49,872 bases of DNA. Origin: Euryarchaeota archaeon SCGC AAA252-I15 (GTDB taxonomy: Archaea > Altiarchaeota > Altiarchaeia > IMC4 > SCGC-AAA252-I15). Positions 5,141 through 34,894 of the stretch are shown in pieces (the stretch's first letter is position 1; each line of letters starts with the position of its first letter). The stretch is taken from contig AQSC01000058.1 of NCBI GenBank assembly GCA_000402775.1, forward strand, positions 1 to 49,872. The letters run 5' to 3'. The translations under genes were made by a program, and so were the position numbers. The notes beneath the pieces are model-generated. The model worked only from the letters and a program-made list of their open reading frames with translations. It was not told the origin of the DNA and searched no databases.

Positions 5141-8104
5141 ATGCCCGTACCTACCCGCTTAGCTGAACTAATTGAACGATTCGAACGGAACAAAAAATTT
5201 TATACGAGCCCTGCCTACAATGAAACCCAGCTCCGCGAGGAATTCGTAAACCCATTCTTCGAGGCCCTCGGGTGGGATGTGAGAAACATTGAGGGGCGGG
5301 CTGAAGCCTACAAGGACGTCATCCACGAGGACGCCATCAGGATCGGGCAGACCATCAAGGCCCCGGACTATTCCTTCCGAGTTGGCGGGCAACGCAAGTT
5401 TTTCGTGGAAACAAAAAAGCCGTCAGTCAACATTAAGGCGGATGTGAACCCCGCATACCAGATTCGAAGATATTCGTGGAGTGCGAAACTGCCCTTGGCC
5501 ATATTAACGGATTTCGAGGAATTCGCAGTTTATGACTGCCGGAAAAAACCACTGCCTACCGATAATGCAAGCGTGGGCAGGGTGCTTTACTTAAGCTATG
5601 ATGAATACGAGAAGAGATGGGGTGAGATAGAAAACATATTCTCCAAACAAGCCATCCTCCAAGGATTGTTCGACCAGTACTCCGAATCAACTAAGGCTAA
5701 GAAAGGCACTTCCGAAGTGGACGATGAGTTCCTTAAGGAAATCGAATTGTGGAGGGACGAGCTAGCGAGGAACATCGCATTGAGGAACCCGAAGTACTCG
5801 GTCCGCGAAATCAACTACGCAATCCAAAAGACCGTAGACAGGATAATATTCCTCCGAATATGCGAGGACCGGGGGATAGAGCCTTACGGACAACTCCGAG
5901 AGATATCCAAAAATGAGGGCGTATACAAGCACCTGTTGAAGCTTTTCGAGAAAGCCGACGAGAAATACGATTCCGGCTTATTCTACTTCAAGGAGGAGAA
6001 AGGCAGGACCGCCTTCCCCGACTACGTGTGCCCAAATCTTAAGATTGACGACAAGGTTTTCAAGGACATCATCAAGAACCTGTATTTCCCGGACTGCCCG
6101 TACGAGTTCTCGGTCATCGGGGCGGACATCCTCGGAAACGTCTACGAGCAGTTCCTCGGGAAAGTCATTCGGCTGACTGAAGGCCACAGGGCGAAGGTCG
6201 AGGAGAAGCCGGAAGTCAAAAAGGCGGGCGGAGTCTACTACACGCCAAAATACATAGTAGACTACATCGTCGAAAACACGGTGGGCAAACTCATCGATGG
6301 CAAAACCCCGAAACAGGTTGAGGGCCTGAAAGTCCTCGACCCCGCCTGCGGCTCAGGCTCATTTCTTATTGGAGCCTACCAGAGACTCCTAGACTACCAC
6401 CGCGACTGGTACGTCAGCCGCGGCCCCGCCAAACACAAGGACGTAATCTACCAGGGTGCGGGCGGCTTATGGTTTCTGACCTTGAAGGAGAAGAAGCGGA
6501 TACTGCTCAACAACATCTACGGCGTCGACATCGACGAGCAGGCCGTTGAAGTTGCGAAACTAAACCTGCTCCTAAAAGTTTTGGAGGACGAGCACCGGGA
6601 GCCGCAGAAGAGGCTGGGAGGCAGAGTGCTCCCCGATTTGGACCAGAACATAAAATGCGGGAACAGCCTCATCGGGCCGGACTACTACACCGGACAAACC
6701 AAAATCTACACCGAAGAAGAAACACTCCACATAAACGTTTTCGACTGGAACAAAGAATTCCCCCACAAATTCGACGCAATAATCGGGAACCCACCGTATG
6801 TACGCCAGGAGATGCTGGGTGAATTCAAGCCCTATTTTGAGAGTCATTATGAAGCCTATCATGGGGTGGCGGACTTGTACGTGTATTTCATCGAGAAAGG
6901 TGTCTCGCTTCTCGCCGATGGGGGGATTTACGGTATCATCGTCGCCAACAAGTGGATGCGGGCGAATTATGGGAGGCCTCTTCGGGCGTGGATGAAAAAC
7001 AGGTGTATTGAGGAGATAACCGATTTTGGAGACCTCCCAGTTTTTAAGAAGGCGACGACGTATCCCTGCATCCTCTGCGTCCGGGAAGGGAAGCCGAAGC
7101 GGAATTTCCACACCACAAGGGTAGAGTCTCTCGACTTTCAGAGTCTCTCAGTTTACGTGAAGAAACACCACTACAAAGTCAATCAAGTTTCGCTTGATGA
7201 CGGCGGCTGGAGCCTCGCCGACGAGGCTTCCGAGAAGCTGCTGAAAAAACTCAAAGACAAAGGTGTACCACTCAAAGAATACGTTAACGCAAAAATCTAT
7301 AGAGGAGTACTAACCGGCTTAAACGAGGCTTTCGTCATCAACGAAGAAACCAAGAATAGAATCATCCAAGAAGACCCTAAAAGCGAGGAACTCATCAAAC
7401 CCTTCCTAGTCGGAAAAGACATCAAAAGGTACTTCATTGACGACAAGGGGCGCTACTTGATCCTAATTCCTAAGGGGTGGACTCGGGAGCACGCAGGCGG
7501 AAAGAACCCGTGGAACTGGTTCTCCTCCAACTACTCCGCAGTCGCCAAGCATCTCATACAATTCAAGGAGAAGGCGGAAAAGCGCTACGACAAGGGCGAA
7601 TACTGGTGGGAGCTCAGAACCTGCGACTACTACCAAGAATTCGAGAAACCGAAAATTCTTTGGCCTGGAATCAGTGCAGAAGTAACCTCCTTTGCATTCG
7701 ACAAGGATAGTTTTTACGGTAATGATAACAACCAGTTAATCATCAGTGATGACTTATACCTGCTGGGAATCCTAAATTCCAAATTAACACGACTAATTCT
7801 AACAAGCATATGCGACAGAGTGCAAGGTGGTTTTTACCGACTAAAGATTATTTACGTCCAGCAAATACCAATCCCTGCTATCGATTATTCCAATTCTAAA
7901 GAGAAGGGGACTCATGATTCCTTGGTTTCTTTGGTTTCTCGTATGCTTGATTTTCACAAGCGTTTAAGCAAGGTGAAGACTCCGCAAGAGAAGTCGGTTT
8001 TAGAAAGGCAGATTGAGGCCGCGGACGATGAGATAAATCAGCTGGTGTACAAACTGTATGGGCTTACCGGGGACGAGATTAGGATTGTGGAGGAAGGTAA
8101 TTGA
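5141..8104 (+). CDS. Type IIG-like fused restriction endonuclease / N6-adenine methyltransferase with TaqI-like target-recognition domain (TRD)
   Basis: N-terminal PD-(D/E)xK-type region (PDYSF...VETKK), GVYYTP, LDPACGSGSF, GNPPYVRQE, C-terminal TRD and helical tail. Confidence 0.92.
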   Translation: MPVPTRLAELIERFERNKKFYTSPAYNETQLREEFVNPFFEALGWDVRNIEGRAEAYKDVIHEDAIRIGQTIKAPDYSFRVGGQRKFFVETKKPSVNIKADVNPAYQIRRYSWSAKLPLAILTDFEEFAVYDCRKKPLPTDNASVGRVLYLSYDEYEKRWGEIENIFSKQAILQGLFDQYSESTKAKKGTSEVDDEFLKEIELWRDELARNIALRNPKYSVREINYAIQKTVDRIIFLRICEDRGIEPYGQLREISKNEGVYKHLLKLFEKADEKYDSGLFYFKEEKGRTAFPDYVCPNLKIDDKVFKDIIKNLYFPDCPYEFSVIGADILGNVYEQFLGKVIRLTEGHRAKVEEKPEVKKAGGVYYTPKYIVDYIVENTVGKLIDGKTPKQVEGLKVLDPACGSGSFLIGAYQRLLDYHRDWYVSRGPAKHKDVIYQGAGGLWFLTLKEKKRILLNNIYGVDIDEQAVEVAKLNLLLKVLEDEHREPQKRLGGRVLPDLDQNIKCGNSLIGPDYYTGQTKIYTEEETLHINVFDWNKEFPHKFDAIIGNPPYVRQEMLGEFKPYFESHYEAYHGVADLYVYFIEKGVSLLADGGIYGIIVANKWMRANYGRPLRAWMKNRCIEEITDFGDLPVFKKATTYPCILCVREGKPKRNFHTTRVESLDFQSLSVYVKKHHYKVNQVSLDDGGWSLADEASEKLLKKLKDKGVPLKEYVNAKIYRGVLTGLNEAFVINEETKNRIIQEDPKSEELIKPFLVGKDIKRYFIDDKGRYLILIPKGWTREHAGGKNPWNWFSSNYSAVAKHLIQFKEKAEKRYDKGEYWWELRTCDYYQEFEKPKILWPGISAEVTSFAFDKDSFYGNDNNQLIISDDLYLLGILNSKLTRLILTSICDRVQGGFYRLKIIYVQQIPIPAIDYSNSKEKGTHDSLVSLVSRMLDFHKRLSKVKTPQEKSVLERQIEAADDEINQLVYKLYGLTGDEIRIVEEGN

Positions 8105-8787
8105 ACTTCTCAGACTTCATCAACGGGGATTATACTCAAAGGATTATTGACGCCCATTATTCAGCAGCTTATGAGGTGTTAGGCGGGCACTTAAGCATAG
8201 ATTCTGACGATGAATTCAGAAAACGCTTGGATTCCCACATACCCGCTTCAAGAGCTGGTTTTCTTAATCCAATAACTTTCTACAATAATTTCAAACAGAT
8301 CGTAAAAAAGGACATTAAAATTCAAGCAGTAATTCTTGTCGTTATTTGTTCCACGATAGAGAAACTCATGGAAAATCTTTCTCTAAAGACAAACTCAAGA
8401 GCTACAATAAAAAAATTCTTCGAGGAATATGCAGGCGAGGGTGATAAGGAAAAACTACTTGCCGGATTTGAATTCGTGAAACAGGATACAACAATCCTAA
8501 ATCCAGAAAACATAAACGAAGTCGTTGACATTTTATATGGAATACGAAACGCATTCGTCCATCACGCACAACTACCACAATCGGATTTCAGAGCAAACCA
8601 AAACGACACCCCAATGTTGGGGGCACTATGGATTGAGAAGAATTCGAAGACATTAAAAAAATATGATGGATGCTTTTTACGCATTAAAGTTACAATCTCT
8701 GACTTTGAGAATATTTTCGAAAGAACAGTACTGAGACTATATCGTTTAGTTGGGGATGAGATTAGGAATATGGAGGGTGTGGTTTGA
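8101..8787 (+). CDS. Putative HEPN-domain protein
   Basis: Helical 228-aa ORF overlapping the RM stop; R-x4-H motif (RNAFVH) at 8545-8562. Family assignment rests on the motif only. Confidence 0.6.
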   Translation: MNFSDFINGDYTQRIIDAHYSAAYEVLGGHLSIDSDDEFRKRLDSHIPASRAGFLNPITFYNNFKQIVKKDIKIQAVILVVICSTIEKLMENLSLKTNSRATIKKFFEEYAGEGDKEKLLAGFEFVKQDTTILNPENINEVVDILYGIRNAFVHHAQLPQSDFRANQNDTPMLGALWIEKNSKTLKKYDGCFLRIKVTISDFENIFERTVLRLYRLVGDEIRNMEGVV

Positions 8788-8948
8788 TGGATTGTCCTAG
8801 ATGCGGTGTCGGGCTTGTTGAGAAGAAGAGGGGTAGGCGGAAGGATGGGACTGAGTTTATTGAGTTCAAGTGTCCCAAGTGCAAGGGCAAATTTGCGGAT
8901 TTGAAGATACCGTATTCTACATTTGGTTTTAGGCGGGAGGACGGTTGA
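8787..8948 (+). CDS. Small Zn-ribbon protein (53 aa)
   Basis: Hand-translated: MDCPRCGVGLVEKKRGRRKDGTEFIEFKCPKCKGKFADLKIPYSTFGFRREDG. The ATG overlaps the previous TGA and there are two CPxC pairs. Below the ORF-track cutoff. Confidence 0.7.
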   Translation: MDCPRCGVGLVEKKRGRRKDGTEFIEFKCPKCKGKFADLKIPYSTFGFRREDG

Positions 8949-9077
8949 AGTGACTGCAAAATCTTATTTTACAGGTCATACTGCGGCTCAAGGACACAGT
9001 ATGCTGATTCATTTTTCTGTTGCTCTTGCGCGGTTTTTTAGTGGTTGTGGGGCATTGTTTCTTATGGTGGTGTCGTG

Positions 9078-9608
9078 ATGGATGCTGAGAACTCTTTAGT
9101 GGTGTTTCAGGGTAAAAGCGTGAGGAGATTATGGCATGACAGCCATTGGTATTTCTCTGTCGTAGATGTTGTTGGAGTGTTGACTGACAGTTCTGTGCCG
9201 CGGCGTTACTGGTCTGACCTGAAAACCAAGTTCAAAGAAGAAGGTTTTGAGTTGTACGATAAAATCGTACAACTGAAGTTGCCGTCTGCTGACGGGAAAA
9301 ACTATGAGACAGACTGCGCTAACACTGAAGTGATGTTCAGGATAATCCAGTCCATACCCTCGCCGAAGGCCGAACCCTTTAAGAGATGGCTTGCGAAAGT
9401 CGGCTACGAGAGAGTGCAAGAGATTGAGAACCCTGAATTGACTATGGAGAGGATGAGGGAGATTTATCACGCTAAAGGCTACTCCGAGGACTGGATTGAA
9501 AAACGCGTGAGAGGTATCGCCGTAAGGGATGAACTCACAGGAGAATGGGGTAAAAGAGGGGTTAAACAGGATAAGGAATTCTTAGTTCACTACCACCAGT
9601 CAAATTAA
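9078..9608 (+). pseudogene. Bro-N (phage antirepressor-like) protein, C-terminally truncated
   Basis: VRRLWHDSHWYFSVVDVVGVL, PSPKAEPFKRWLAKVGYERVQEIENPE, KRVRGIAVRDELT; ends abruptly in EFLVHYHQSN. Confidence 0.75.
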
Positions 9609-20776: not shown

Positions 20777-20907
20777 CCCGTCTTAGCGTAGCTTGGTTAA
20801 CGCGGCTGGCTGTAGTTTGGATTCAAGGGGAAATAAATCCCTTTACCAGCCCTAAAAAGCATAAAGCAGCTACCGGCAGACCCCCGGTTCAAATCCGGGA
20901 GACGGGA
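20777..20907 (+). tRNA. tRNA-Tyr(GTA) with a 56-nt intron at 37/38 (20816-20871)
   Basis: Acceptor stem CCCGTCT/AGACGGG; anticodon stem GCTGG/CCGGC; T-arm CCCGG-TTCAAAT-CCGGG; BHB central helix CTGT/GCAG. Confidence 0.93.
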
Positions 20908-20919
20908 AACCATTTTCTT

Positions 20920-21273
20920 TCAAATTTCAACGGAGATTGAAATCAAATTCCAACCCTGTGTCAAGGATGTGTGAGCGTCCACAGTCGAGTATACATCACC
21001 AGTAACTGTACTGTTGAAGAACCCTATGTTTGCAGTATAGTTGCCGCCCAGTGTATTTAGACCGCCCCCGGGTTTATCGGATGCTGTCAAAAAAAATCGG
21101 GCACTATAAGTTTCACCTTCAGCAGTGCCCCCCTGAAGCCCGCTTGTGTGATGTTGCACTGTTGGTTCTCCATTCATAATCAAGATTGCTCCTGCTATTG
21201 AAGCAAGTAAAAAAATCGATGACAATACAATCCTATTCTCTTTGAAAAGCGACTTCATTTTTAAGACTAGCAT
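20920..21273 (-). CDS. Small secreted protein ending in a GWNLIS motif
   Basis: N-terminal hydrophobic segment, Gly-rich beta region, C-terminus LTQGWNLISISVEI. True start may be 21258. Confidence 0.75.
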   Translation of the reverse strand: MLVLKMKSLFKENRIVLSSIFLLASIAGAILIMNGEPTVQHHTSGLQGGTAEGETYSARFFLTASDKPGGGLNTLGGNYTANIGFFNSTVTGDVYSTVDAHTSLTQGWNLISISVEI

Positions 21274-22625
21274 AATCCATCACCATCTACTTGCCACCAG
21301 TTGCTACCATTACAAAAACAGAGTTCGTTGAAGCTATCATCATAGTATATGCTACCTTCTGTATTTGCATTGCAGGTTCCGGGACTGTTGGTTGGCTCAA
21401 GCATCAAGACATTTGATATGTGCACCCTCTGCTGTGGCGTTGTCGTTCCGAATCCTACATTACCTTCTGAATCAACAGTCATATACTTGTCAATCAATAA
21501 ATTAGATCCAATGTGCAGTTTATCTGTATTGTCGTTGTCCAAACCTATTGCATAGATTTCCGTCCCTATTTCACCGCTATTTGTCATAAATGAGATAATT
21601 GCTTCATCATCCGATTTTGAAACCCGGTCTAGGTGGACTCTGGAACTGCCGGTTGATTTCGCTTTAACCCTCAATGTCGGTCCGCCTGTTTTTTGGACAT
21701 CCAAGATATAAGTTGGGTTAAGTACCCCAATGCCGACTTTACCGCCCATAATGGCCATAGTATTGTCTTGCGTTACATTAACCCCGTTTTGGTCGTTCAG
21801 GGCGATCGCCATAGAATAATCTCCACCAGCCTCTATCTCCCGTCCGATTGCGGTGGAATAGTATCCTGAAGCAACCGTGTTTCGTCCGAGTGCAGTGGAA
21901 TAGTACCCTGAGGCGGTAGAATACCACCCTGAAGCGAGCCCATACATCCCTGATGCAGTTGTCCTATACCCTAATGCTGTGGAATACATGTCTGATGCTG
22001 TTGTCTGATACCCTAATGCAGTGGAAGAATAACTTGATGCTGTGGTGTCAAACCCCATCGCGGTTGAATAAGTCCCCGAGGCGGTTGAATTATAACCCAT
22101 GGCTGTGGAATAATCACCTGAAGCGGTTGTTTCATACCCTATAGCAGCAGCATATGTCCCAGGGGAGACCGCATCCACCCCACACACACCTTCGGAACCC
22201 AAAATCTGAGTGCAATTTAATTCTGATTCATTTACATCACTACCTGTAAGACTGTCATCCCTCACATCCTCACCAGAAATGTCACCCAGCGGGCTGTACC
22301 ACATAAGCCTTTCCGAGCCATCAAAGTCCAAGTCAACACTGTTAATCTTGTAGTCCTTGTAGTAGTCCTTGCCGTACTCCAGCGAAACATCCAAGTTCAA
22401 ATTCCAGCTGCCGTTCACAATGGCGTCAGTGAAAGTCGTATTGTATATCACATTGCCACCGGATGCCGCATCCCAGAATTCAATTGTTAGGTTGGCGGAT
22501 TCGACTAACACACCACTATCCCTCACATCCGTGCCCTGGTCTGAAATCGAAACAGACAGGCTGCCACTTGAATAAATACAAAGAAAAAACAAAATCAAAA
22601 CCGAAAACAATATATTTCTTTTCAT
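21267..22625 (-). CDS. Secreted adhesin-like protein with YadA-head-like repeats
   Basis: Signal peptide, Ig-like N-domain, eight 14-aa repeats, GKVGIG and GNVGFGTTTP beta-fibre motifs, Cys-containing C-terminal tip. Confidence 0.8.
   Translation of the reverse strand: MKRNILFSVLILFFLCIYSSGSLSVSISDQGTDVRDSGVLVESANLTIEFWDAASGGNVIYNTTFTDAIVNGSWNLNLDVSLEYGKDYYKDYKINSVDLDFDGSERLMWYSPLGDISGEDVRDDSLTGSDVNESELNCTQILGSEGVCGVDAVSPGTYAAAIGYETTASGDYSTAMGYNSTASGTYSTAMGFDTTASSYSSTALGYQTTASDMYSTALGYRTTASGMYGLASGWYSTASGYYSTALGRNTVASGYYSTAIGREIEAGGDYSMAIALNDQNGVNVTQDNTMAIMGGKVGIGVLNPTYILDVQKTGGPTLRVKAKSTGSSRVHLDRVSKSDDEAIISFMTNSGEIGTEIYAIGLDNDNTDKLHIGSNLLIDKYMTVDSEGNVGFGTTTPQQRVHISNVLMLEPTNSPGTCNANTEGSIYYDDSFNELCFCNGSNWWQVDGDGLC
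21816..22151 (-). repeat. Eight 42-bp coding repeats (STAxGxxTTASGxY)
   Basis: Read directly from the translation, AAAIGYETTASGDY through STAIGREIEAGGDY. Confidence 0.9.
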
Positions 22626-23870: not shown

Positions 23871-23894
23871 GAAAATACATTATTTTTTAATCAT

Positions 23895-23908
23895 AAAAAG
23901 CTTATTAA
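23895..23908 (+). promoter_or_regulatory. BRE + TATA box (AAAAAG CTTATTAA)
   Basis: TATA lies about 21-28 nt upstream of G23929, the first copy of the tRNA-Asn 5' end. It may also serve the divergent gene. Confidence 0.65.
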
Positions 23909-23928
23909 TGAGAAGGCTTATCAAATCT

Positions 23929-24274
23929 GCCTCGGTAGCTTAGTATACAACCCCCTTCTTTTTCCCGAAAAAGAAAAGCGTTGACGGAAAAGAAAAATCC
24001 AAAAAAAATATGTGACCCAGAACATAAAATTCTGGCGAATAAACAATACACGCTCAGTGTGGCTAAGCGAGTGAAACAAGCGCACGCCGCACCCGCATGT
24101 GGCCGAACCAAAGGTTCGGACACGTGTCGGACTCAAAGTCCGCCACATGTCAACTGGGCGTTACAGTTGCCTCGGTAGCTCAGGTTGGTCGGACTTAGCC
24201 GACGACTAAGGGGCCATCTTCGCTACCGCTCGATGACCCGGAACAAAACGGTGAGAAAAAGGAAGTAAACTTTT
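23929..24274 (+). ncRNA. Unassigned highly structured leader containing two tRNA-Asn 5' copies
   Basis: GCCTCGGTAGCT at 23929 and 24169; near-continuous helices, including a perfect four-way junction at 24095-24150. Confidence 0.5.
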
Positions 24275-24467
24275 GCCTCGGTAGCTCAGTTGGTGGAGCG
24301 CCTGGCTGTTATGCAGAATTCGTAAAACGACCTAGCACGGTCCGACGCCGGCATCACACCCCCACGAGGGGAGTCGAAGCCAAATGGCTGAAGACAAGCA
24401 CGGAGGTCCCCAATGAATCTCTCGCACAGGAACCAGGCGGTCACAGGTTCAAGTCCTGTCCGGGGCG
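24275..24467 (+). tRNA. tRNA-Asn(GTT) with a 120-nt intron at 37/38 (24312-24431)
   Basis: Acceptor stem GCCTCGG/CCGGGGC; D-stem GCTC/GAGC; anticodon stem CCTGG/CCAGG; T-arm ACAGG-TTCAAGT-CCTGT; BHB helix CTGT/ACAG. Confidence 0.93.
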
Positions 24468-24501
24468 TCCGTGTAAAAAGGGTCGCAGTATAGTGTTTTT
24501 T

Positions 24502-26847
24502 CTAGATAATCAGTGGCAGGCTTATTAGGTTCCAGCCTGCCTGCAAGTTAGTTGAATAGGGTAGTATGGCACAGGAGTAAAAACAGCCTGACGTGGCACT
24601 CTCGTCCCCGTAGTTCTGGGTTGTGTTGCAGTAGTTATGGTCCCCTGTATTTGAGTCATCGTCTGCGATGTCGTAGTAGTCTCCGCCACTCTGGTTGTTC
24701 CCGCAGAAACGGTTATTGTTTAACGTGTTGCCTGTGCTGTTTGCGTCGGCACTGAAACCGTGCTCTTGGTTGCTGCTCCCGGTGTTGCCTATGATGGTGT
24801 TGTTACTCGACGATTCCAAATAGATACCACTATAGGTGTTCTCGTTTGCAGTGTTGTCTGTGATAGTATTATTATGCGACTCGTACAAGTTGGTGCCACC
24901 ATCAGAGTTGTTCGATATATTGTTGCTGATAATGTTATTATACGACACTCCATTTAGGGAGATGCCGCAATCCGTGTTAGATAACACATTATTGCTTGTA
25001 ATGTTGTTTTCCTCTGACCCTTCTATGTAGATGCCATCACCACCGTTAAACGTGACAATATTATCTGAAAGGGTATTGTGGCTGCTAGAATAGATACCAA
25101 CACCAGTGGCATTATTTGAATTCACTGTATTATTTGTTATATTGTTGCCACTCGAATTATCCAAGCTGATGCCACTATCCTTGTTCCCGGTGGCAGTATT
25201 GCCAGTGATCGTGTTATAGTCGCTGGAGGATTCGAGGCAGATACCGGGTTCGTTGTTATTGATTCCATTGTTATTTGTGAGTGTGTTGTTGCTGGATGAA
25301 TCTAGGAAGATGCCTTTGTGGACATTGTTGCTTGCATTATTGTGCGTAAGCGTGTTGTTGTTTGAGGAGAAGAGGGAGATGCCGTCGTCGGAGTTATTGT
25401 TGACTGTATTGTCTGTGACAGTATTATAATTACTGGAATCTTGCAAGGAAATACCGCTCTCATTGTTCGAGTTCGCAGTATTATTTGTGACTGTGTTGTT
25501 GCATGACTCCTGAAACAATTGGATACCACCGTGGTTGTTATTATTCGCGGTGTTGTTGGTGAGGGTATTGTTGTCCGAGTAATCCAGGCAGATTCCCCCC
25601 TCAGCGTTCTCGTTTATTGTGTTGTTTGTGACCGTGTTGTCGTTTGACTCCCACAACCAGATGCCGTGGTTTTCGGTGTTTGAATTAGCAGTATTTCCTC
25701 TAACTATGTTATAGTTGCTCGAATCGCTCAAGCGAATGCCAACGTTGTTCTCGCTGGCGGTGTTGTTTGTGAGAGTGTTATTGCTTGATGATTTCAAGTA
25801 GATACCGTCTCCGTTGTTCTCGTTCACGGTGTTGTTCGTGAGGGTGTTGTTGCTTGATGAGTCAAGGTATATTCCACTAGCATTGTTATTTGATATTGTA
25901 TTCAGCATTATCTCATTGGAGTTGCTTGAGTTGTATACAATGATACCAAACCAACCATTGTTGTTTATAGTATTATCTATTAACTTGTTGTTGTTACTGA
26001 ATGAATGGAGGGTAATGGCATAGACTCCTGTGTTGTTGGATATATCATTACCGGTGAAATTGTTGTTACTGCTAGACAGCAGGGCGACACCCCTAGCATT
26101 CAGGTTTACGGTGTTGTTAACTAAAGTGTTGTTAGTGGATGACTCCATGTAGATTCCAAAACCAAAGGGACCATACTCTGTTTCAGGTGTTGTTGTGTTG
26201 TAGATCTCGTTGTTGGTTAACGTGTTGTTGTGTGCGTCGGCCATGTAAATACCGACAGAAAAGTCTGTTGCAGTTGTGTTAGAAACATAATTGCTGTCCA
26301 CTATGTTGTTGTTAGAACCTATTAAGATAGCAAAAGACATGTCGCCGTAACCGGTATCGATACCTATTGTATCGAATATTGTGTTACCGATGATTCTGTT
26401 GAAGTGAGCGGAGTTCCATAACAAAATAGCCCAGTTTGTGTTGTTAACCCTGTTGTTTGACACATTGTTGTAGCTGGAATTCTCCAAGCATATACCACCC
26501 CCACTATCTAAAAGTGTGTTGTTATCCAACCTGCTGTTGTGCGTCAAGTTAAGATAAATTGCGGAGCCATTGACTGTGTAGCCTGTTATTACGCAATTCG
26601 TTACAGTTACATTATTCCTTCCTTGAGCGAAGATTCCATAGAATTCCTGGTCCCTGGTGTTACCCTCTAGGATGTGGGCATTGCAGTCGAGTGTGATGTC
26701 GTTGGCACCGATTATGAGTGCAGTGCCGTTGCAATTAAGGTCAGCCGTTAATGTCGTGTCTTCCGTGATGATGTCACCGCATGACACTGCACTAGCGTAA
26801 ATAGGTGAGAAAAATAAAACCAAACAAACCAATATTTTTAGCTTCAT
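24502..26847 (-). CDS. Secreted right-handed beta-helix (NosD/PbH1 repeat) protein
   Basis: Signal peptide; VSCGDIITEDTTLTADLNC cap; more than 20 ~22-24-aa NNTLTNNT...GIxL repeats; C-terminus LQAGWNLISLPLII. Confidence 0.92.
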   Translation of the reverse strand: MKLKILVCLVLFFSPIYASAVSCGDIITEDTTLTADLNCNGTALIIGANDITLDCNAHILEGNTRDQEFYGIFAQGRNNVTVTNCVITGYTVNGSAIYLNLTHNSRLDNNTLLDSGGGICLENSSYNNVSNNRVNNTNWAILLWNSAHFNRIIGNTIFDTIGIDTGYGDMSFAILIGSNNNIVDSNYVSNTTATDFSVGIYMADAHNNTLTNNEIYNTTTPETEYGPFGFGIYMESSTNNTLVNNTVNLNARGVALLSSSNNNFTGNDISNNTGVYAITLHSFSNNNKLIDNTINNNGWFGIIVYNSSNSNEIMLNTISNNNASGIYLDSSSNNTLTNNTVNENNGDGIYLKSSSNNTLTNNTASENNVGIRLSDSSNYNIVRGNTANSNTENHGIWLWESNDNTVTNNTINENAEGGICLDYSDNNTLTNNTANNNNHGGIQLFQESCNNTVTNNTANSNNESGISLQDSSNYNTVTDNTVNNNSDDGISLFSSNNNTLTHNNASNNVHKGIFLDSSSNNTLTNNNGINNNEPGICLESSSDYNTITGNTATGNKDSGISLDNSSGNNITNNTVNSNNATGVGIYSSSHNTLSDNIVTFNGGDGIYIEGSEENNITSNNVLSNTDCGISLNGVSYNNIISNNISNNSDGGTNLYESHNNTITDNTANENTYSGIYLESSSNNTIIGNTGSSNQEHGFSADANSTGNTLNNNRFCGNNQSGGDYYDIADDDSNTGDHNYCNTTQNYGDESATSGCFYSCAILPYSTNLQAGWNLISLPLII

Positions 26848-26933
26848 CTTATCAACCCATCGAATGTATTATTTAATCTCTGTTTTAATATCTTTCAAGA
26901 GGAGTCTGTGTACTATGTGCAGCCAGACCGATT

Positions 26934-27028
26934 TTTTATTCTCTAATTCTAATGTATAAGTAGAACAGCGAGATGCTGTTTTGTATGTAAATACCATTGC
27001 GGATGAGTAGACGCCTGTCCGGGGCGAA
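26934..27028 (+). repeat. 95-bp junction element, copy 1, ending in the tRNA-Asn 3' sequence
   Basis: 84/95 identical to 30687-30781 by manual alignment; ends CCTGTCCGGGGCG (27014-27026), equal to tRNA 24455-24467. Confidence 0.9.
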
Positions 27029-27104
27029 ACTTCACTTTTTTTATGCCTGCAGTGATGCGGTTTTAGCTTGAAAATAGGGTTTATCCTTGCAGGGACTTGA
27101 ACCA

Positions 27105-27815
27105 TTAAATTAGACTATTTTGTATTTCTCGTATGACCTTTCTGGTGTTTCTCGTTACTCTTTCGAATACTTTATCCGTTATGCTGAACTCACCTTTTAT
27201 CGAGTTCACGTATTTAGGATCATTTATCACCGAAAGCAATTCTCCAAGATGTTTTTTTATCACATCAACAGGACATCGTTTCAGGTGCTCGATTATCTTT
27301 TTTACTTTTGGTTTCTCGTAGCATAAGATTATTATGTCCCGTTTGTCCGTGAGCCTCATGGAATTGATTTTTAGTGCAATAATCATTTCCCTGTTAGCTA
27401 GCCGGACTTTCGCTTTCGAGTCGGGATGCCAGCCACTTACGGTTCTTGTCTCGGAATTTTTGAAAAGATAATTAAAGGAGTAACTGCTTCCAGTCTGCCT
27501 GGATTTTACTGAATTGGTGAGGATGTCCACACTAACAGGTAACTCCTCCTTCTTCTTGTATTTTCTGAACTCCCCCGCATAGATTTCATCCAAATCCTTT
27601 TTCTCTGTGGTGATTTTGAAGCCCTGAATATTAAGTAGTTCCTCAAAGAACTGTAGTTCATTTTTTGGAATTGTGATGTCTAGGTCAACGGAGAATCTTG
27701 GAAAACCGAAAGCACTTACTGCATATCCCCCTATGAGCACGTACTTTGTTTTTTCGGGAATGGTTCTAAGGAAATAAAAGCACTCATCTTCCCTTTTAAG
27801 TATTTTATCTCTCAT
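27105..27815 (-). CDS. AbiEii-like nucleotidyltransferase (type IV TA toxin candidate)
   Basis: YVLIGGYAV...RFSVDLDI motif; EMIIALKINSMRLTDKRDI. Confidence 0.75.
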   Translation of the reverse strand: MRDKILKREDECFYFLRTIPEKTKYVLIGGYAVSAFGFPRFSVDLDITIPKNELQFFEELLNIQGFKITTEKKDLDEIYAGEFRKYKKKEELPVSVDILTNSVKSRQTGSSYSFNYLFKNSETRTVSGWHPDSKAKVRLANREMIIALKINSMRLTDKRDIIILCYEKPKVKKIIEHLKRCPVDVIKKHLGELLSVINDPKYVNSIKGEFSITDKVFERVTRNTRKVIREIQNSLI

Positions 27816-27824
27816 AGTATATCC

Positions 27825-28475
27825 TCAGTGAGTTATGTGGTGATAATCCTCGAATAAACCTAATTTGTATTGGTTGTCTAAGTACTCTAATGCCGGCTGG
27901 TAAGTTAACTCGTTTTCCTTGCAGAATTTGATGGTCTCTTTCAAGGGAACAACTGGAGTGCCGTCTTTCTTTTCAACCTTGATTTTATTTCTGGGGTGTA
28001 ATACGTAGGTCAACCCGAATAAAGTCCTGCTTTCACCCTCCACGACATACTCTACGTCGTTTTTTTTGAAGAATTCCCGCCAGTATTTCAAATCTTTCTC
28101 CAAGACTTCGATGTGAATGGGCTTGAATCCTCTGGTAAATCCGGTGAAATAATAACCGTCAGTCCATATGCTCACTGCGTCACTTCCGCAGAACGCATAT
28201 TTTCTCTCAGCTTTCTCTATAATACGTTCCTTATCCAAATTTCCCTTGACGATTTCGGATACGAAAACGTGGGGTTCCTTAACAGTATACTGACCCCTCT
28301 CAATTCTATCCAAATAGCCATCACTAACTAGATCATGGACTACCTTCTTGGCTTGGGGACTTGGAAAAATGGAACTAAATTCCCTTAAACTGAATTCCTC
28401 CATTCCAAAAGCCTCCCACAACCAACCGTACAACTTCAAATACATATTCATAATGGTTACTATTATGGTAACCAA
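27825..28475 (-). CDS. Winged-helix AbiEi-like antitoxin candidate
   Basis: N-terminal wHTH ending LVSDGYLDRIERGQY; lies directly upstream of the nucleotidyltransferase. True start may be 28451 or 28445. Confidence 0.65.
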   Translation of the reverse strand: MVTIIVTIMNMYLKLYGWLWEAFGMEEFSLREFSSIFPSPQAKKVVHDLVSDGYLDRIERGQYTVKEPHVFVSEIVKGNLDKERIIEKAERKYAFCGSDAVSIWTDGYYFTGFTRGFKPIHIEVLEKDLKYWREFFKKNDVEYVVEGESRTLFGLTYVLHPRNKIKVEKKDGTPVVPLKETIKFCKENELTYQPALEYLDNQYKLGLFEDYHHITH

Positions 28476-28622
28476 TATTTAAATAGTTATCGCATTTACT
28501 AAAGTGCACATACAATATTTAGACTCTTGCAAGAGCCCTTATATCGAACGGGTAAGACGACGACCCAAAGCGAGGGCCAAACAAAGGTCCCCGCTCACAC
28601 CATTATTAGGGTTGGTTAATTC

Positions 28623-30584
28623 CTAGGTTCTAACTTCAATATATTCCGGATTATTCTTTGCTATCTTACTCAATATTTTTCCCATTTCAGAATTTGCATC
28701 TTTTATTTGAATAACTAAAGTATCCATCGCTCGAGTCAAGGGGATTAACAACCAATTCTTCGCATAATCTTTTCTTCTTTCCTCATAATCCCTCAAGTCT
28801 TTTTGAACAGATACATCCTCGAAAGTTTCTAGTTTATAATTGTAAAATGTATCAAATTCAAAAATTACTGTAATCCAACCCTCTAATCCTCTACAAGAAT
28901 CATATTGTACAATTCTCAATTGGTCAACTTCAGTTGGGAAACTTTGCTTTTTCACTTTCTGAATCGTACCATCCCAAATTGGATATCCCCATTCTTTTAA
29001 AGTATTTGATAATGTGGACCTCTTGGAGTTTCTATCTACCAATTCAGGAGGCACACAGAATAGCATGTCAACGTTCTCATTTTTATCTTGTTTATTAGAT
29101 TTAACTAACTCCTCATGAAACTGTTCAGTATAGTCTCCAAATAGGATAATTATTCTTCCTCCATATAATTCTTCTTGTTTCTCAAGATCCAAATCATCAA
29201 TATTTATTTTTTTTGTGAATTCCATTAAGAACTGTACGATATTTGATTTCTGTCGCATACTTCGTCTTAAGGGAATCACTTGTTTATCCTTTACTATGCG
29301 GGGTTTAGTCCAATTGCAGGGGTCTCCCCCTCGAATCAACTGATCATATCCATCAGCTACTATCACGTTTTTAGGTTGAAACAGTGAGTATATCAGATCT
29401 CTTTCACCTGCTGGCCAATCTTGTGCTTCATCAATCATTATGTAATCCCAATCGAGTAAATCTGGACGATCAAGCATGAGATTTCTTTTTAATTCTGGTT
29501 TCGATTCAATTAGGTGTTTTAATTTGCTAGTATATTCTTTTGGGATGTCTATTGATCCTCCGTAAATTCCATGTTCAAAATCTTCTTTTGTGCGAATACC
29601 TGTAGCATAAAAAAGTTTATACCAGTAACTAGTAAGAGACATTATTTGTATAGATTCATCCACGTCGTCCTTAATTCGCATTTGTGCAAAGAGTCTCCTG
29701 ATATCAGAGATTAAAGCAAGATTGTAAGTTAATATCAATACTCTCTCCAATCTTTCTTTATAAAGTTGATGAGCGATTCTCAATAGTCGGAAGGTTTTTC
29801 CTGTACCACCTCTACCCCTAAATACGAGTAATTGTTTGTGTAATTTTTCACCATACTTCTGGTCTTTTATGATTTCCTGGCATATCTTCTTGACTTTTTC
29901 TTTGTCAAGTCGGGTTAACGCCAATCTTTTCGTCAATAAATCTTTGCAGATTTGAAATGAGTCCCCATCTAAACCAGCACTATAAACTAATTCACTAGAA
30001 TCATATCTTCTTAACGGATACCTCTGACTAAGAATAATTTTCCAAAAATCTGGTACGGTAAAATCTTTGAAAAGTAGATTTATGTCTGTAGGTAACTCCC
30101 CGAAGTCATTACTATTTGAAAATGGGAAGTATATAAGATTCGATAGCCACGGATTCGTTTTAATATGATTTATTAAATAATCTCGAAGAGAATACCTCTG
30201 ATTTCTGTTTTGATGAGTTACCGCTCTTTTTTTACCTTGAGTTGTGACATAAACTTTTGTCCCAATTATTTCAATTTTGTCACTACTATGCTTTTTTACC
30301 TCAATAGCGCAACAAAAATCCCTTATTTTAACATCACTTAACTCTAAACCATGTTCTTCCTTGTAAACTTTGGCCTCAACTCTAGTTTGATAATCCTCTA
30401 AAAAACCTATAATTACAACATCAATATCTTGGGGTAATTGTCCGTAACACTGCACAGAAGGAATAATATATACATTATTTAATGGATTATTCTTCAATGA
30501 TTCGTCCTTCGCAAGGCAATCATAAATTTTTTTTGCAGATTCATATTCAGGGTCATCAATATCTTGAAGTAACGTGATTGTCAT
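28623..30584 (-). CDS. Nuclease (NERD/PD-DExK-like) fused to an SF1 helicase
   Basis: DIDVVIIG...AIEVKKH nuclease motif; GRGGTGKT; DEAQD; CRGLEG; LTRAMD; AT-rich DNA. Confidence 0.8.
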   Translation of the reverse strand: MTITLLQDIDDPEYESAKKIYDCLAKDESLKNNPLNNVYIIPSVQCYGQLPQDIDVVIIGFLEDYQTRVEAKVYKEEHGLELSDVKIRDFCCAIEVKKHSSDKIEIIGTKVYVTTQGKKRAVTHQNRNQRYSLRDYLINHIKTNPWLSNLIYFPFSNSNDFGELPTDINLLFKDFTVPDFWKIILSQRYPLRRYDSSELVYSAGLDGDSFQICKDLLTKRLALTRLDKEKVKKICQEIIKDQKYGEKLHKQLLVFRGRGGTGKTFRLLRIAHQLYKERLERVLILTYNLALISDIRRLFAQMRIKDDVDESIQIMSLTSYWYKLFYATGIRTKEDFEHGIYGGSIDIPKEYTSKLKHLIESKPELKRNLMLDRPDLLDWDYIMIDEAQDWPAGERDLIYSLFQPKNVIVADGYDQLIRGGDPCNWTKPRIVKDKQVIPLRRSMRQKSNIVQFLMEFTKKINIDDLDLEKQEELYGGRIIILFGDYTEQFHEELVKSNKQDKNENVDMLFCVPPELVDRNSKRSTLSNTLKEWGYPIWDGTIQKVKKQSFPTEVDQLRIVQYDSCRGLEGWITVIFEFDTFYNYKLETFEDVSVQKDLRDYEERRKDYAKNWLLIPLTRAMDTLVIQIKDANSEMGKILSKIAKNNPEYIEVRT

Positions 30585-30686
30585 TGTTTCAGCAACGAAA
30601 GTATATTGTATATCTTTTAAAATAACTGAAGAATATCATAAATTAATCTTTTGCTCCGACCAACATCAAACTTGATAGATACACCC

Positions 30687-30781
30687 TTTTATTCTCTGGT
30701 TCTAATGTGTAATCAGAACAGCGAGATGCTGTTTTCGATGTAAATCGTATTGCGGATGAGTAGACGCCTGTCCGAGGCGAA
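30687..30781 (+). repeat. 95-bp junction element, copy 2
   Basis: See copy 1; ends CCTGTCCGAGGCG (30767-30779). Confidence 0.9.
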
Positions 30782-30788
30782 CCTTTGA

Positions 30789-31067
30789 TTAGTCGTGTGG
30801 TAGTTTGTATATTTTGTCGTGGTGTGCGATGCGGACGAATCTCACTAAATCGCCGTCTATTCGGAATGTTATCACAAATGAACCTGCTTGAACACGCCTG
30901 TATCCTGCAAGCGGCCTCCGGAGTGGCTTGTACGCGTTGGGATTTTCAAGTATCTGTAGAATCTTTTTATCCACATGTTCTTGCAGAGACTTGTCTTTTT
31001 TAATAATTTTTCCGTAGTCTTTCCTGAAGTACTCGCTGCGGGCTGGACGATACTTTCTCTCCATCAT
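30789..31067 (-). CDS. RelE/ParE-superfamily toxin
   Basis: 92 aa, basic; FRKDYGK...ILENP...PLAGYRRVQAGSFVITFRI...RIAHHDKIY. Confidence 0.85.
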   Translation of the reverse strand: MMERKYRPARSEYFRKDYGKIIKKDKSLQEHVDKKILQILENPNAYKPLRRPLAGYRRVQAGSFVITFRIDGDLVRFVRIAHHDKIYKLPHD

Positions 31068-31072
31068 ACGCT

Positions 31073-31330
31073 TTACTCAACTGCAGTATGGAGGTCTTTT
31101 AGGAGGTCTCGGCCGCTAGAAAACTCCTTGTACCCGCTTTTCTCAGCCTTTCGCATGGACTCTACGAACTCGGGGTTGATTTCACGTTGCTCGTCCAACT
31201 CATTGCGTAGGCCGCTTCGGACCATCTCTGAAAAGGAATGGTAGACGCCATGCTCTACAAGCGCCTTCGCCTGGTGATACATGCCAACAGGCAAGGAAAT
31301 ATTAACTTTCAGTGTATCCATGATATACAC
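31073..31330 (-). CDS. Ribbon-helix-helix antitoxin
   Basis: KVNISLP...ALVEHGVYHSFSEMVRSGLR; acidic tail; directly upstream of the toxin. Confidence 0.85.
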   Translation of the reverse strand: MYIMDTLKVNISLPVGMYHQAKALVEHGVYHSFSEMVRSGLRNELDEQREINPEFVESMRKAEKSGYKEFSSGRDLLKDLHTAVE

Positions 31331-31395
31331 TACACAAAACTAGAATAAAAACAAAATTAACCCTTTTTGCCTGCAACTCCGGACCCACGCGCAAA

Positions 31396-31412
31396 GTCCA
31401 AGTCCGGGGCGT
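31396..31412 (+). repeat. Degenerate tRNA-Asn 3' copy (att-like)
   Basis: GTCCAAGTCCGGGGCGT matches GTTCAAGTCC[TGTCC]GGGGCGT with one substitution and a 5-nt microhomology deletion. Confidence 0.65.
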
Positions 31413-31475
31413 AACCTTTATTAAATTGGTCGTAATCTGTTGATTTTTTTAAGGGGTTGTATTTCCCCCTCATTT

Positions 31476-31643
31476 TTAACCTGTCAATACTGCTTGCTTC
31501 CATTTGCGCCTGGTTGTGCGGGTTAAAATAAAGAATTTATCAACATCCTCTTGCTTTTCAGGGTCACCGCCCCGCAATCTAATAGCGCTTTTTTCTAAAT
31601 CAGTTAGTTGAGCACATGTTGGTGGCAATCTACCAGAAGTCAT
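31476..31643 (-). CDS. Possible 55-aa ORF
   Basis: MTSGRLPPTCAQLTDLEKSAIRLRGGDPEKQEDVDKFFILTRTTRRKWKQAVLTG; the only sizeable ORF found in this cassette; no family. Confidence 0.3.
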   Translation of the reverse strand: MTSGRLPPTCAQLTDLEKSAIRLRGGDPEKQEDVDKFFILTRTTRRKWKQAVLTG

Positions 31644-31810
31644 TCTTGGCTAAGTATTAAGAACAATAGGATTAAAAGTGAACTCTCAGGTTTCTCGTAG
31701 GAAAAAGTCAAGGACTTGAACTTAATCTAGACTAGAATCTTGTGTTCCCAACCTCTTGAATCCCGTAAAATCAATCTTTCCCCCCCCCTCGTCTCCCGGA
31801 TGTTACTTGT

Positions 31811-31831
31811 GTTCAAGTCCTGTCCGGGGCG
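31811..31831 (+). repeat. Perfect 21-bp tRNA-Asn 3' copy (attR-like)
   Basis: GTTCAAGTCCTGTCCGGGGCG identical to 24447-24467. Confidence 0.95.
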
Positions 31832-34878: not shown

Positions 34879-34894
34879 ACGCCTGTCTGGGGCG
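34879..34894 (+). repeat. Outermost degenerate tRNA-Asn 3' copy
   Basis: ACGCCTGTCTGGGGCG matches ACGCCTGTCCGGGGCG of junction 1 at 15/16; preceded by GGACTTGGAC at 34859. Confidence 0.75.

What the first reader, a model, noticed from the sequence alone, without database searches (positions are those of the whole stretch)
23895..24274. tRNA-Asn is preceded by a ~345-nt structured leader carrying two extra copies of its own 5' end
GCCTCGGTAGCT occurs at 23929, 24169 and 24275. The BRE/TATA is spaced for a start at the first copy (a 16-nt fragment with one mismatch), and the intact tRNA has no TATA at -26. The second copy continues as a degenerate D-arm but is locked in a stem (CGGTAGC 24173 with GCTACCG 24222). 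A further D-arm mimic lies at 24051-24069. Nearly all intervening sequence folds into helices. I cannot match it to a known RNA class. Options: a novel ncRNA co-transcribed with the tRNA, or relics of elements that integrate at the tRNA 5' end.
Basis: partly seen in the sequence, partly recalled or inferred. Interest (0 to 1): 0.8.

Follow-up and report, generated by a model that had tools for sequence, protein, structure and literature searches.

The report
Insertion scars upstream of tRNA-Asn
The long "leader" in front of this archaeal tRNA-Asn gene consists of two small gene-less pieces of mobile DNA inserted one after the other into the gene's first 15 bases; this is a known kind of scar, unusual in hitting the 5' end and in carrying a conserved hairpin-rich module of unknown function.

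Summary
In detail: GCCTCGGTAGCT occurs three times, at 23929, 24169 and 24275. The last copy starts an intron-containing tRNA-Asn(GUU), 24275-24467.

The leader is not ancestral. A related Altiarchaeota contig (L027) has the same promoter block followed directly by the intact tRNA. A ~98% identical MAG (L006) has insert A but lacks the 106-nt unit made of copy 2 plus insert B, and the gap is bounded exactly by the 17-nt repeat. Copy 1 is therefore the original 5' end, left behind with the native promoter. A (223 nt) and B (89 nt) are successive insertions that each rebuilt the tRNA start.

The tRNA's 3' end is also repeated four or five times downstream, bounding a low-GC toxin-antitoxin and defence island. 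The gene is an integration hotspot.

Only 24050-24161 folds better than chance. A model built solely from other Altiarchaeales contigs finds this module in the window (E ~4e-6). In those contigs it also lies between tRNA-Asn 5' repeats, but in the opposite orientation.

No integrase, terminal inverted repeats, ORF or Rfam family were found.

Best reading: scars of a tRNA-end-targeting integrative-element family. No TATA-like sequence lies within 240 nt of the tRNA, so it is probably transcribed through the module. That is inferred, not shown.

The parts
23885..23909 (+). Native bidirectional promoter block (TTTTTAATCATAAAAAGCTTATTAAT). The TATA-like TTATTAAT at 23902-23909 lies 20-27 nt upstream of copy 1.
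   Evidence: TTTTTAAYCATAAAAA is conserved with L027, where it directly precedes the intact tRNA-Asn. A/T-only 8-mers are listed. Promoter function is inferred, not shown.
23929..23944 (+). Copy 1: the displaced original 5' end of tRNA-Asn (positions 1-16, one mismatch).
   Evidence: It aligns with the start of the intact tRNA in the empty-site relative L027. It lies 58 nt from the ATG of the divergent gene, against ~68 nt in L027.
23944..24166 (+). Insert A (223 nt, gene-less). The left part (23944-24049) is AT-rich and contains a palindrome at 23948-23983, a T5 run at 23959-23963, and TATA-like stretches at 24001-24011 and 24024-24031. The right part is the hairpin module.
   Evidence: Absent from L027; present in L006. 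No terminal inverted repeats and no credible ORF. By eye, the left part resembles the start of a unit in the L021 tRNA-Met array (GCTTTTCTTAGAAAGAAAACCTTGACCAAAAGAAA), from the sequences.
24050..24161 (+). Conserved multi-hairpin module of about 110 nt, function unknown.
   Evidence: Covariance model R1, built only from L007 and L021, hits this stretch at 34.7 bits, E 3.7e-6; the next best hit in the window has E 0.39. Fold z -4.69. Compensatory pairs are seen in helices 1 and 3. Identity to L006 is 99.2%, against 94.2% for the intron. No Rfam match.
24167..24183 (+). Copy 2: a 17-nt direct repeat (TT plus tRNA positions 1-15), the junction left by the A insertion.
   Evidence: D5.
24184..24272 (+). 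Insert B (89 nt, gene-less, not significantly structured). Its start, GGTCGGACTTAGCCGAC..GACTAAGG, matches the start of the L007/L021 element at the same offset from the repeat.
   Evidence: The 106-nt unit 24167-24272 is missing from L006 and bounded exactly by the repeat. Fold z -0.49. Similarity to L007/L021. The R1 hit on the minus strand is weak (E 0.6).
24273..24289 (+). Copy 3: the 17-nt direct repeat that overlaps the start of the functional tRNA.
24275..24467 (+). tRNA-Asn(GUU) with an intron of about 121 nt (about 24312-24432) after position 37.
   Evidence: Rfam RF00005, 49.3 bits. A homologous intron occurs in L006 and L027. The intron region folds with z -3.33.
24447..24467 (+). 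The tRNA 3' end that is repeated downstream: the left boundary of the downstream island.
27014..27026 (+). Copy of the tRNA 3' end (CCTGTCCGGGGCG), preceded by a ~30-nt element right-end sequence.
30767..30779 (+). Copy of the tRNA 3' end (CCTGTCCGAGGCG), preceded by the same right-end sequence (ATTGCGGATGAGTAGACG).
31394..31411 (+). Degenerate copy of the tRNA 3' end (AAGTCCAAGTCCGGGGCG).
31811..31831 (+). Exact 21-nt copy of the tRNA 3' end: the right boundary of the low-GC island.
   Evidence: GC falls to 0.35-0.42 across 25-31 kb.

Best explanation
The 346 nt between the promoter and tRNA-Asn are scars of two successive insertions of small, gene-less mobile-element DNA into the first 15 bases of the gene, spanning positions -2 to +15.

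Each insertion carried its own copy of that 15-17-nt stretch. An intact tRNA was therefore rebuilt on the downstream side, and the previous 5' end was pushed upstream. Copy 1 (23929) is the original start, still sitting behind the native promoter. Insert A came first and B second; alternatively, B was lost from L006 by recombination between the repeats.

The most likely enzyme is a site-specific (tyrosine-type) integrase acting in trans, as with the rare archaeal elements that target tRNA 5' ends. The inserts are either deletion derivatives or miniature relatives of full elements.

One consequence follows. The tRNA has no TATA-like sequence within 240 nt. It must therefore be transcribed either from the native promoter or from a TATA-like site inside A (24024-24031). 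Either way the transcript runs through the hairpin module and would be freed by RNase P.

Shown: the repeats, the empty site, the polymorphism, and homology of the module to elements at other tRNA ends. Inferred: the recombinase type, transcription, and processing.
For: - Repeats: three exact copies against 0.11 expected by chance. The 17-nt repeat bounds B exactly.
- Empty site: in L027 (its adjacent FTR and ATPase proteins are 70% and 73% identical to the window's) the same divergent-gene start and the TTTTTAAYCATAAAAA block are followed directly by the intact, homologous intron-containing tRNA-Asn.
- Polymorphism: L006 (~98% identical) has copy 1 + A + tRNA but lacks precisely 24167-24272.
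- Same architecture elsewhere: the Altiarchaeales contigs L007/L022 and L021 have a partial tRNA-Asn 5' copy inside a 24-nt repeat, a 143-nt element, and then the intact tRNA.
- Homologous inserts: model R1, built only from those elements, finds window 24050-24161 at E 3.7e-6. It also finds units next to repeated tRNA-Met 3' ends in L021.
- Shared element start: B and the L007/L021 element begin with the same ~17 nt directly after the repeat.
- Hotspot: the tRNA 3' end recurs at 27026, 30779, 31411 and 31831, with shared element-end sequences. These repeats bound units carrying AbiEii, ParE, a helicase and a beta-helix protein, in low-GC DNA.
- Decay by deletion: in L021, unit U2 is U2' with an internal deletion.
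- Precedent: 5'-distal tRNA integration is rare but documented. For pTN3 the tRNA is rebuilt but 'separated from its original promoter' (PMC5495485). Other sources: the review PMC8371274, CalSub-E1 in PMC6563490, and a displaced 5' tRNA-Thr fragment in PMC3293823.
- Promoter: no A/T-only 8-mer on the + strand between 24032 and 24275.
Against: - No integrase or any recombinase gene lies in the inserts or anywhere in the 50-kb window.
- No full-length parent element was found.
- The inserts are far smaller (89-223 nt) than any described integrative element.
- The repeat is 15-17 nt here, against 41 bp for pTN3.
- The module lies in opposite orientation relative to the repeat in the window and in L007/L021. 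Simple one-family site-specific integration does not predict this.
- The module's compensatory changes and high conservation (1 difference in 122 nt against 7 in 121 for the intron; one-sided p = 0.03) hint at selection on a folded strand rather than inert scar DNA.
- Transcription was not observed.
Confidence: 0.8

Rival explanations
1. The module at 24050-24161 is a functional non-coding RNA, and this does not exclude an insertion origin. It would be transcribed with the tRNA from a promoter in A or from the native promoter, and released when RNase P cuts at the tRNA 5' end.
For: - Strong fold (z -4.69).
- Conserved between distant Altiarchaeota lineages, with compensatory pairs in helices 1 and 3.
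- Both substitutions seen in helix 1 keep G-U pairing on the + strand.
- More conserved than the intron between the window and L006 (p = 0.03).
- TATA-like ATAAAATT at 24024-24031 is placed for a start at about 24050-24055.
- No other TATA-like sequence lies before the tRNA, so the module is probably in the precursor.
Against: - Absent from L027, so it is not needed for tRNA-Asn expression.
- In L007/L021 it is antisense to the tRNA and has no evident promoter.
- Both strands fold equally well in all four sequences.
- The pair counts come from an alignment fitted to the model, with only 6 sequences.
- No Rfam family.
Confidence: 0.2
2. A and B are complete, still-mobile miniature integrative elements rather than decayed remnants. 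A recombinase encoded elsewhere would mobilise them, and the hairpin module would act as the folded or bound recombination arm.
For: - Gene-less units of 90-225 nt flanked by tRNA-end repeats recur at three loci in different lineages: the window Asn 5' end, the L007/L021 Asn 5' end, and the L021 Met 3' array.
- Unit order differs between the strains L007 and L021.
- B shows a presence/absence polymorphism between genomes that are ~98% identical.
- One unit occurs twice in the L021 array.
Against: - No free or circular form and no recombinase were found.
- U2 against U2' in L021 shows that small units can arise by internal deletion.
- The B polymorphism could be a simple deletion between 17-nt repeats.
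- There is only one copy of each insert in the 50-kb window.
Confidence: 0.25
3. The repeats are target-site duplications made by a transposase or a casposon-type Cas1 integrase, and A and B are MITE-like derivatives.
For: - Casposons target tRNA ends, duplicate about 14-15 bp and integrate in tandem (PMC4779613, PMC6563490).
- The repeat length here is 15-17 nt.
Against: - No terminal inverted repeats join the ends of A or of B.
- Repeat length is not fixed: 15-17 nt here, 24 nt in L007/L021, and 13-21 nt on the 3' side.
- No Cas1 or transposase gene lies in the window.
Confidence: 0.03
4. The copies are alternative or split 5' exons, or pieces of a giant D-loop intron, joined to the tRNA body at the RNA level by the splicing endonuclease.
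For: - Archaea have split tRNAs and non-canonical introns.
- This tRNA already carries a large intron.
Against: - An intact gene follows immediately.
- The copies stop at position 15-16.
- Direct repeats are not what a bulge-helix-bulge site needs, and the only stem noted is not better than chance.
- Relatives lack the copies.
Confidence: 0.02
5. The copies arose by local tandem duplication or slippage without any foreign DNA.
For: Short direct repeats can promote duplication.
Against: A and B are unrelated to the local sequence. They are homologous to elements at tRNA ends in other genomes.
Confidence: 0.02

Closest known systems
pTN3-like (SSV-type) integrative plasmids and viruses of Thermococcales, which integrate into the 5' half of a tRNA gene (Cossu et al. 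2017, PMC5495485; review PMC8371274)
   Same: - The target is the 5' part of a tRNA gene.
- An intact tRNA is rebuilt downstream.
- The old 5' fragment stays with the original promoter.
- The rebuilt tRNA depends on transcription coming from the element.
- The same integrase also performs inversion, which could account for the flipped module.
   Different: - pTN3 has a 41-bp att site inside its integrase gene, and leaves int(N) and int(C) halves plus about 18 kb of genes.
- Here the repeat is 15-17 nt and the inserts are 89-223 nt with no ORF.
- No integrase lies in the window.
- The host is Altiarchaeota, not Thermococcales.
Displaced 5' tRNA-Thr fragment 1.8 kb upstream of the gene in Caldiarchaeum subterraneum (Sugahara et al. 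2012, PMC3293823), and CalSub-E1 at the tRNA-Ser 5' end (PMC6563490)
   Same: - A 5' tRNA fragment lies upstream of the intact, intron-containing tRNA.
- The insertion is polymorphic within a natural population.
   Different: - There the insert encodes a recombinase and recurs at six genomic sites.
- Here the inserts are gene-less, tiny and stacked.
Tandem arrays of integrated elements and att remnants at tRNA genes (Sulfolobus, Thaumarchaeota, Thermococcaceae; PMC6563490, PMC9897764, Islander PMC4383910)
   Same: - The same tRNA site is re-used, giving repeated partial tRNA copies.
- The 3' side of this tRNA-Asn is a textbook case, with toxin-antitoxin and defence cargo.
   Different: - Described arrays are almost all on the 3' side, and their units are several kilobases long.
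- The 5' array here has units of about 100-220 nt with a conserved hairpin module.
Casposons and their tandem insertions at tRNA 3' ends
   Same: Short duplication of a tRNA end (about 15 nt) and tandem accretion.
   Different: - No terminal inverted repeats and no Cas1.
- Repeat length is variable.

Membership tests
Site-specific integrative element scar (attL/attR) at a tRNA gene | A direct repeat identical to part of the tRNA flanks the insert, with an intact tRNA at one end. | tested here: met
   The 17-nt repeat is exact at 24167 and 24273 and matches 15/17 at 23927. The intact tRNA is at 24275-24467.
Site-specific integrative element scar (attL/attR) at a tRNA gene | Related genomes have the uninterrupted (empty) site. 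| tested here: met
   In L027 the promoter block is followed directly by the tRNA. L006 lacks exactly 24167-24272.
Site-specific integrative element scar (attL/attR) at a tRNA gene | An integrase gene lies inside or next to the insert. | tested here: not met
   No credible ORF in the leader. No integrase or recombinase domain appears in 40 window proteins scanned against Pfam.
Site-specific integrative element scar (attL/attR) at a tRNA gene | The insert sequence is related to elements found at att sites in other genomes. | tested here: met
   The R1 model built from L007/L021 hits 24050-24161 at E 3.7e-6, and also hits units next to the tRNA-Met 3' repeats in L021. The start of B matches the start of the L007/L021 element.
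pTN3-like / SSV-type 5'-half integration | The att site lies within the integrase ORF, leaving int(N) and int(C) fragments on the flanks. | tested here: not met
   The inserts are 89 and 223 nt, with only short overlapping ORFs. No protein-level similarity search of these fragments was possible.
pTN3-like / SSV-type 5'-half integration | The rebuilt tRNA is expressed from an element promoter. | not testable with these tools
   Only sequence hints are available: TATA-like sites at 24001-24011 and 24024-24031 inside A, and none between 24032 and 24275.
MITE / transposon / casposon | Terminal inverted repeats at the ends of the insert. | tested here: not met
   No inverted repeat pairs the ends of A or of B.
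MITE / transposon / casposon | A target-site duplication of fixed length. | tested here: not met
   The repeat is 15-17 nt here, 24 nt in L007/L021, and 13-21 nt on the 3' side.
Any curated RNA family (Rfam 15) | A covariance-model match at or near the gathering score. | tested here: not met
   Only the tRNA passes. The best leader hits are anti-hemB (23.5 against 49.5 bits) and the S15 leader (19.8 against 42.2 bits), both on the minus strand. Nothing was found in L006/L007/L021 either.
Split tRNA / non-canonical tRNA intron | A bulge-helix-bulge motif at the junctions. | not tested
   No dedicated search was run. The only noted stem (24173/24222) lies in a segment that folds no better than shuffles.

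The most novel reading that the evidence does not exclude
Altiarchaeota may carry a family of miniature (about 90-225 nt), gene-less elements that insert specifically into tRNA gene ends. They would rebuild the tRNA each time and pile up into arrays in which tRNA-end repeats alternate with inserts. Their conserved multi-hairpin module would be a working nucleic-acid structure. It could be an RNA that rides on the tRNA's promoter and is released by RNase P or RNase Z. Alternatively it could be a folded single-stranded recombination arm, as in integron attC or CTX-phage attP.
Probability: 0.15. Interest if true: 0.7.

Novelty: new member of a known kind. Interest (0 to 1): 0.35.

Why it matters
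The finding explains an odd-looking locus without needing a new RNA class, and it cautions against reading tRNA-end repeats as regulatory leaders.

It adds a clear example, with an empty site and an intermediate state, of the rare 5'-end mode of tRNA-gene integration, in a phylum whose mobile elements are barely described.

It also gives a natural case in which a possibly sole tRNA-Asn gene seems to depend on transcription through at least ~220 nt of foreign, strongly folded leader. That is a testable substrate for archaeal RNase P and for studying promoter capture.

If the small units prove to be active, they would be a new style of miniature mobile DNA.

Tried and rejected
- **Rfam:** run at gathering and at permissive thresholds on the window and on related loci. 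Only tRNAs were found.
- **ARAGORN:** finds no tRNA because of the long introns.
- **IMG/VR exact-pattern scans.** Six scans were run: the att core, hairpin 1, the start of B, copy 1 plus the start of A, and the 3'-side right end. They gave only chance hits in phage tRNAs or coding DNA, or nothing.
- **BLAST of the leader** against the phage and plasmid collections: no match.
- **Genome scan** with the 37-nt tRNA 5' half: only two species.
- **Metagenome scan** with the pattern for the start of B: only the Altiarchaeales lineage.
- **Cross-phylum transfer:** I first read L007 as a different phylum from the window. FTR and ATPase homologues show the window is itself Altiarchaeota, so that idea was dropped.
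- **Neighbouring 174-aa protein:** it has no homologues, so it could not be used to collect loci.
- **More distant relatives** (L023-L026, L030-L033): they have lost synteny or end before the tRNA, and they contain no module.
- **Choice of strand for the module:** folding energies are equal on both strands.
- **Rejected readings:** terminal inverted repeats and casposon, small ORFs, and local duplication.

Full report
**Observation.** GCCTCGGTAGCT occurs exactly three times in the 49,872-base window, at 23929, 24169 and 24275 on the + strand. Chance would give 0.11 matches, and no shuffle reaches three. The repeat extends to 17 nt: TTGCCTCGGTAGCTCAG is exact at 24167 and 24273 and matches 15/17 at 23927. 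The third copy begins a genuine tRNA (Rfam 49.3 bits, 24275-24467) with anticodon GTT and an intron of about 121 nt after position 37. ARAGORN misses it. Five independent metagenome contigs carry the same leader, identical or with two substitutions, so it is not an assembly artefact.

**Structure.** The whole leader folds better than shuffles (z -3.83), but the signal comes from one stretch.

| Segment | z-score |
|---|---|
| 24040-24168 | -4.69 |
| 23929-24060 (copy 1 + AT-rich part) | -0.93 |
| 24169-24274 (copy 2 + B, includes the CGGTAGC/GCTACCG stem) | -0.49 |

No Rfam family matches the leader, even at E <= 10.

**Organism.** Window proteins include FTR, CitG, RnfC/D and a T2SS-type ATPase. 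Apart from one ~98% identical MAG labelled 'Methanobacteriota archaeon', every named homologue of FTR and of the ATPase is from Candidatus Altiarchaeota or Altiarchaeales, at 58-73% identity. The window is therefore most likely Altiarchaeota.

**The leader is inserted DNA.** Three comparisons show this.

- L027, a relative whose FTR and ATPase are 70% and 73% identical, has the same layout. A divergent gene start and a conserved TTTTTAAYCATAAAAA block are followed directly by an intact tRNA-Asn with a homologous intron, about 68 nt from the ATG. In the window, copy 1 sits 58 nt from the ATG and aligns with the start of L027's tRNA.
- L006 (~98% identical) has copy 1, insert A and then the tRNA. 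It lacks exactly 24167-24272, which is one 17-nt repeat plus B.
- Contigs L007/L022 and L021 are labelled Altiarchaeales and carry the identical 37-nt tRNA-Asn 5' half. They have a partial 5' copy inside a 24-nt repeat (CAAAGGCTTGCCYCGGTAGCTCAG), a 143-nt element, and then the tRNA.

Four occupancy states therefore exist: empty, A only, A plus B, and a related element.

**The inserts belong to a family.**

- A covariance model built only from the L007 and L021 elements finds window 24050-24161 (+) at 34.7 bits, E 3.7e-6, over its full length. The next hit in the window has E 0.39.
- The same model finds units beside repeated tRNA-Met 3' ends in L021. There, five copies of TCCCATCGGGCCCA are spaced 117-177 nt apart, and one unit is an internal-deletion derivative of another.
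- B starts with GGTCGGACTTAGCCGAC..GACTAAGG. This is the same sequence that follows the repeat in L007/L021, at the same offset.
- Pair counts on the model-fitted alignment show compensatory changes in helices 1 and 3. The alignment has six sequences and leans towards the model.
- The module is oriented with the tRNA in the window and against it in L007/L021.
- Both strands fold equally well, so the active strand cannot be chosen. Whether the module works as RNA or as DNA also stays open.

**The tRNA is a hotspot on both sides.** Its last 21 nt recur exactly at 31811-31831. Shorter copies end at 27026, 30779 and 31411, and perhaps at 34894. The copies at 27026 and 30779 are preceded by the same ~30-nt sequence (ATTGCGGATGAGTAGACG). 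Those at 30779 and 31411 are followed by (T)AACCTTT, and so is the second tRNA-Asn of L027. The units between the copies are low in GC (0.35-0.42). They carry a NosD-like beta-helix protein, an AbiEii toxin, a Schlafen-like helicase and a ParE toxin.

**What is missing.**

- No integrase or transposase domain was found in 40 window proteins.
- The leader has no credible ORF.
- No terminal inverted repeats link the ends of A or of B.
- No relative turned up in the IMG/VR, phage or plasmid collections.

**Expression (inferred).**

- On the + strand, the only A/T-only 8-mers near the locus are 23879-23891, 23902-23909 (TTATTAAT), 24001-24011 and 24024-24031 (ATAAAATT). None lies between 24032 and 24275.
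- If initiation needs a TATA box, as established for archaeal promoters, the tRNA is made with a leader of at least ~220 nt that includes the module.
- A T5 run at 23959-23963 could stop part of the transcription that starts at the native promoter.
- The site at 24024 is spaced for a start at about 24050, which is the module's first base.
- None of this was measured.

**Comparison with known systems.** Integration into the 5' part of a tRNA gene is rare but documented in archaea. For pTN3-like integrases the tRNA is rebuilt but 'separated from its original promoter' (PMC5495485) and is expressed from the integrase promoter (PMC8371274). Other cases are CalSub-E1 (PMC6563490) and a displaced 5' tRNA-Thr fragment 1.8 kb upstream of the gene in a Caldiarchaeum population (PMC3293823). 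Partial tRNA copies left by integration are pervasive (PMC9897764).

The present case shares the logic but differs in several respects. The repeat is 15-17 nt, the inserts are 89-223 nt without genes, they are stacked, and they carry a conserved hairpin module. Membership in the pTN3/SSV type is not claimed, because the defining integrase fragments are absent. Casposon or MITE readings fail on terminal repeats and on fixed duplication length.

**Verdict.** The first (a novel co-transcribed ncRNA) fails for the leader as a whole, but remains possible for the 112-nt module. This is a new example of a known phenomenon with some unusual traits, of moderate interest.

Noticed in passing
window 24468-31831 (possibly to 34894): The 3' end of tRNA-Asn is repeated at 27026, 30779, 31411 and 31831, and weakly at 34894. 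The repeats bound low-GC units that carry a NosD-like beta-helix protein, an AbiEii toxin-antitoxin pair, a Schlafen-like helicase and a ParE toxin-antitoxin pair. The units share end sequences: ATTGCGGATGAGTAGACG before the repeat and (T)AACCTTT after it.
   Followed up: partly
window 20777-20907: A second intron-containing tRNA, probably Tyr (GTA anticodon by eye, intron of about 56 nt). Rfam finds it and ARAGORN misses it. No repeated fragments of it occur in the window.
   Followed up: partly
L027 84-440 (minus strand): The empty-site relative has two tRNA-Asn genes 94 nt apart. The first contains an intron and has a C5-U68 mismatch in the acceptor stem. The second has no intron, has a better stem, and is followed by TAACCTTT. 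This may reflect replacement of the first gene by an element-borne copy.
   Followed up: no
L021 409-1130; L007 1-210: tRNA-Met is followed by four more copies of its 3' end, with gene-less units of 100-165 nt between them in the order U1, U2, U3, U1, U2'. U2 is U2' with an internal deletion between CTTGAC repeats. The related strain L007 has a different unit order.
   Followed up: partly
L021 1129-1350: Repeated palindrome-plus-TTGACCAAAA motifs that look like iterons, lying just after the last tRNA-Met repeat. A similar motif (CGTTGACGGAAAAGAAAAA) lies in window insert A at 23978-23996.
   Followed up: no
window 24096-24151: Overlapping inverted repeats centred on the palindrome ACACGTGT (24120-24127) allow alternative pairings inside the module.
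   Followed up: no
window 5141-9608: An Eco57I/MmeI-type restriction-modification fusion protein (987 aa) and a Bro-N domain protein lie in a dip of GC content. This is probably another acquired island.
   Followed up: no
window 21267-22625: A 452-aa protein with five YadA-head repeats, a bacterial adhesin domain, in an archaeal genome. It lies between the two tRNAs and next to ORFs that have no homologues.
   Followed up: no
whole window; L006: The nearest public MAG (JBDRAY010000013.1) is labelled 'Methanobacteriota archaeon'. Apart from that MAG's own proteins, all named protein homologues are Altiarchaeota, so the label looks too coarse or wrong.
   Followed up: partly
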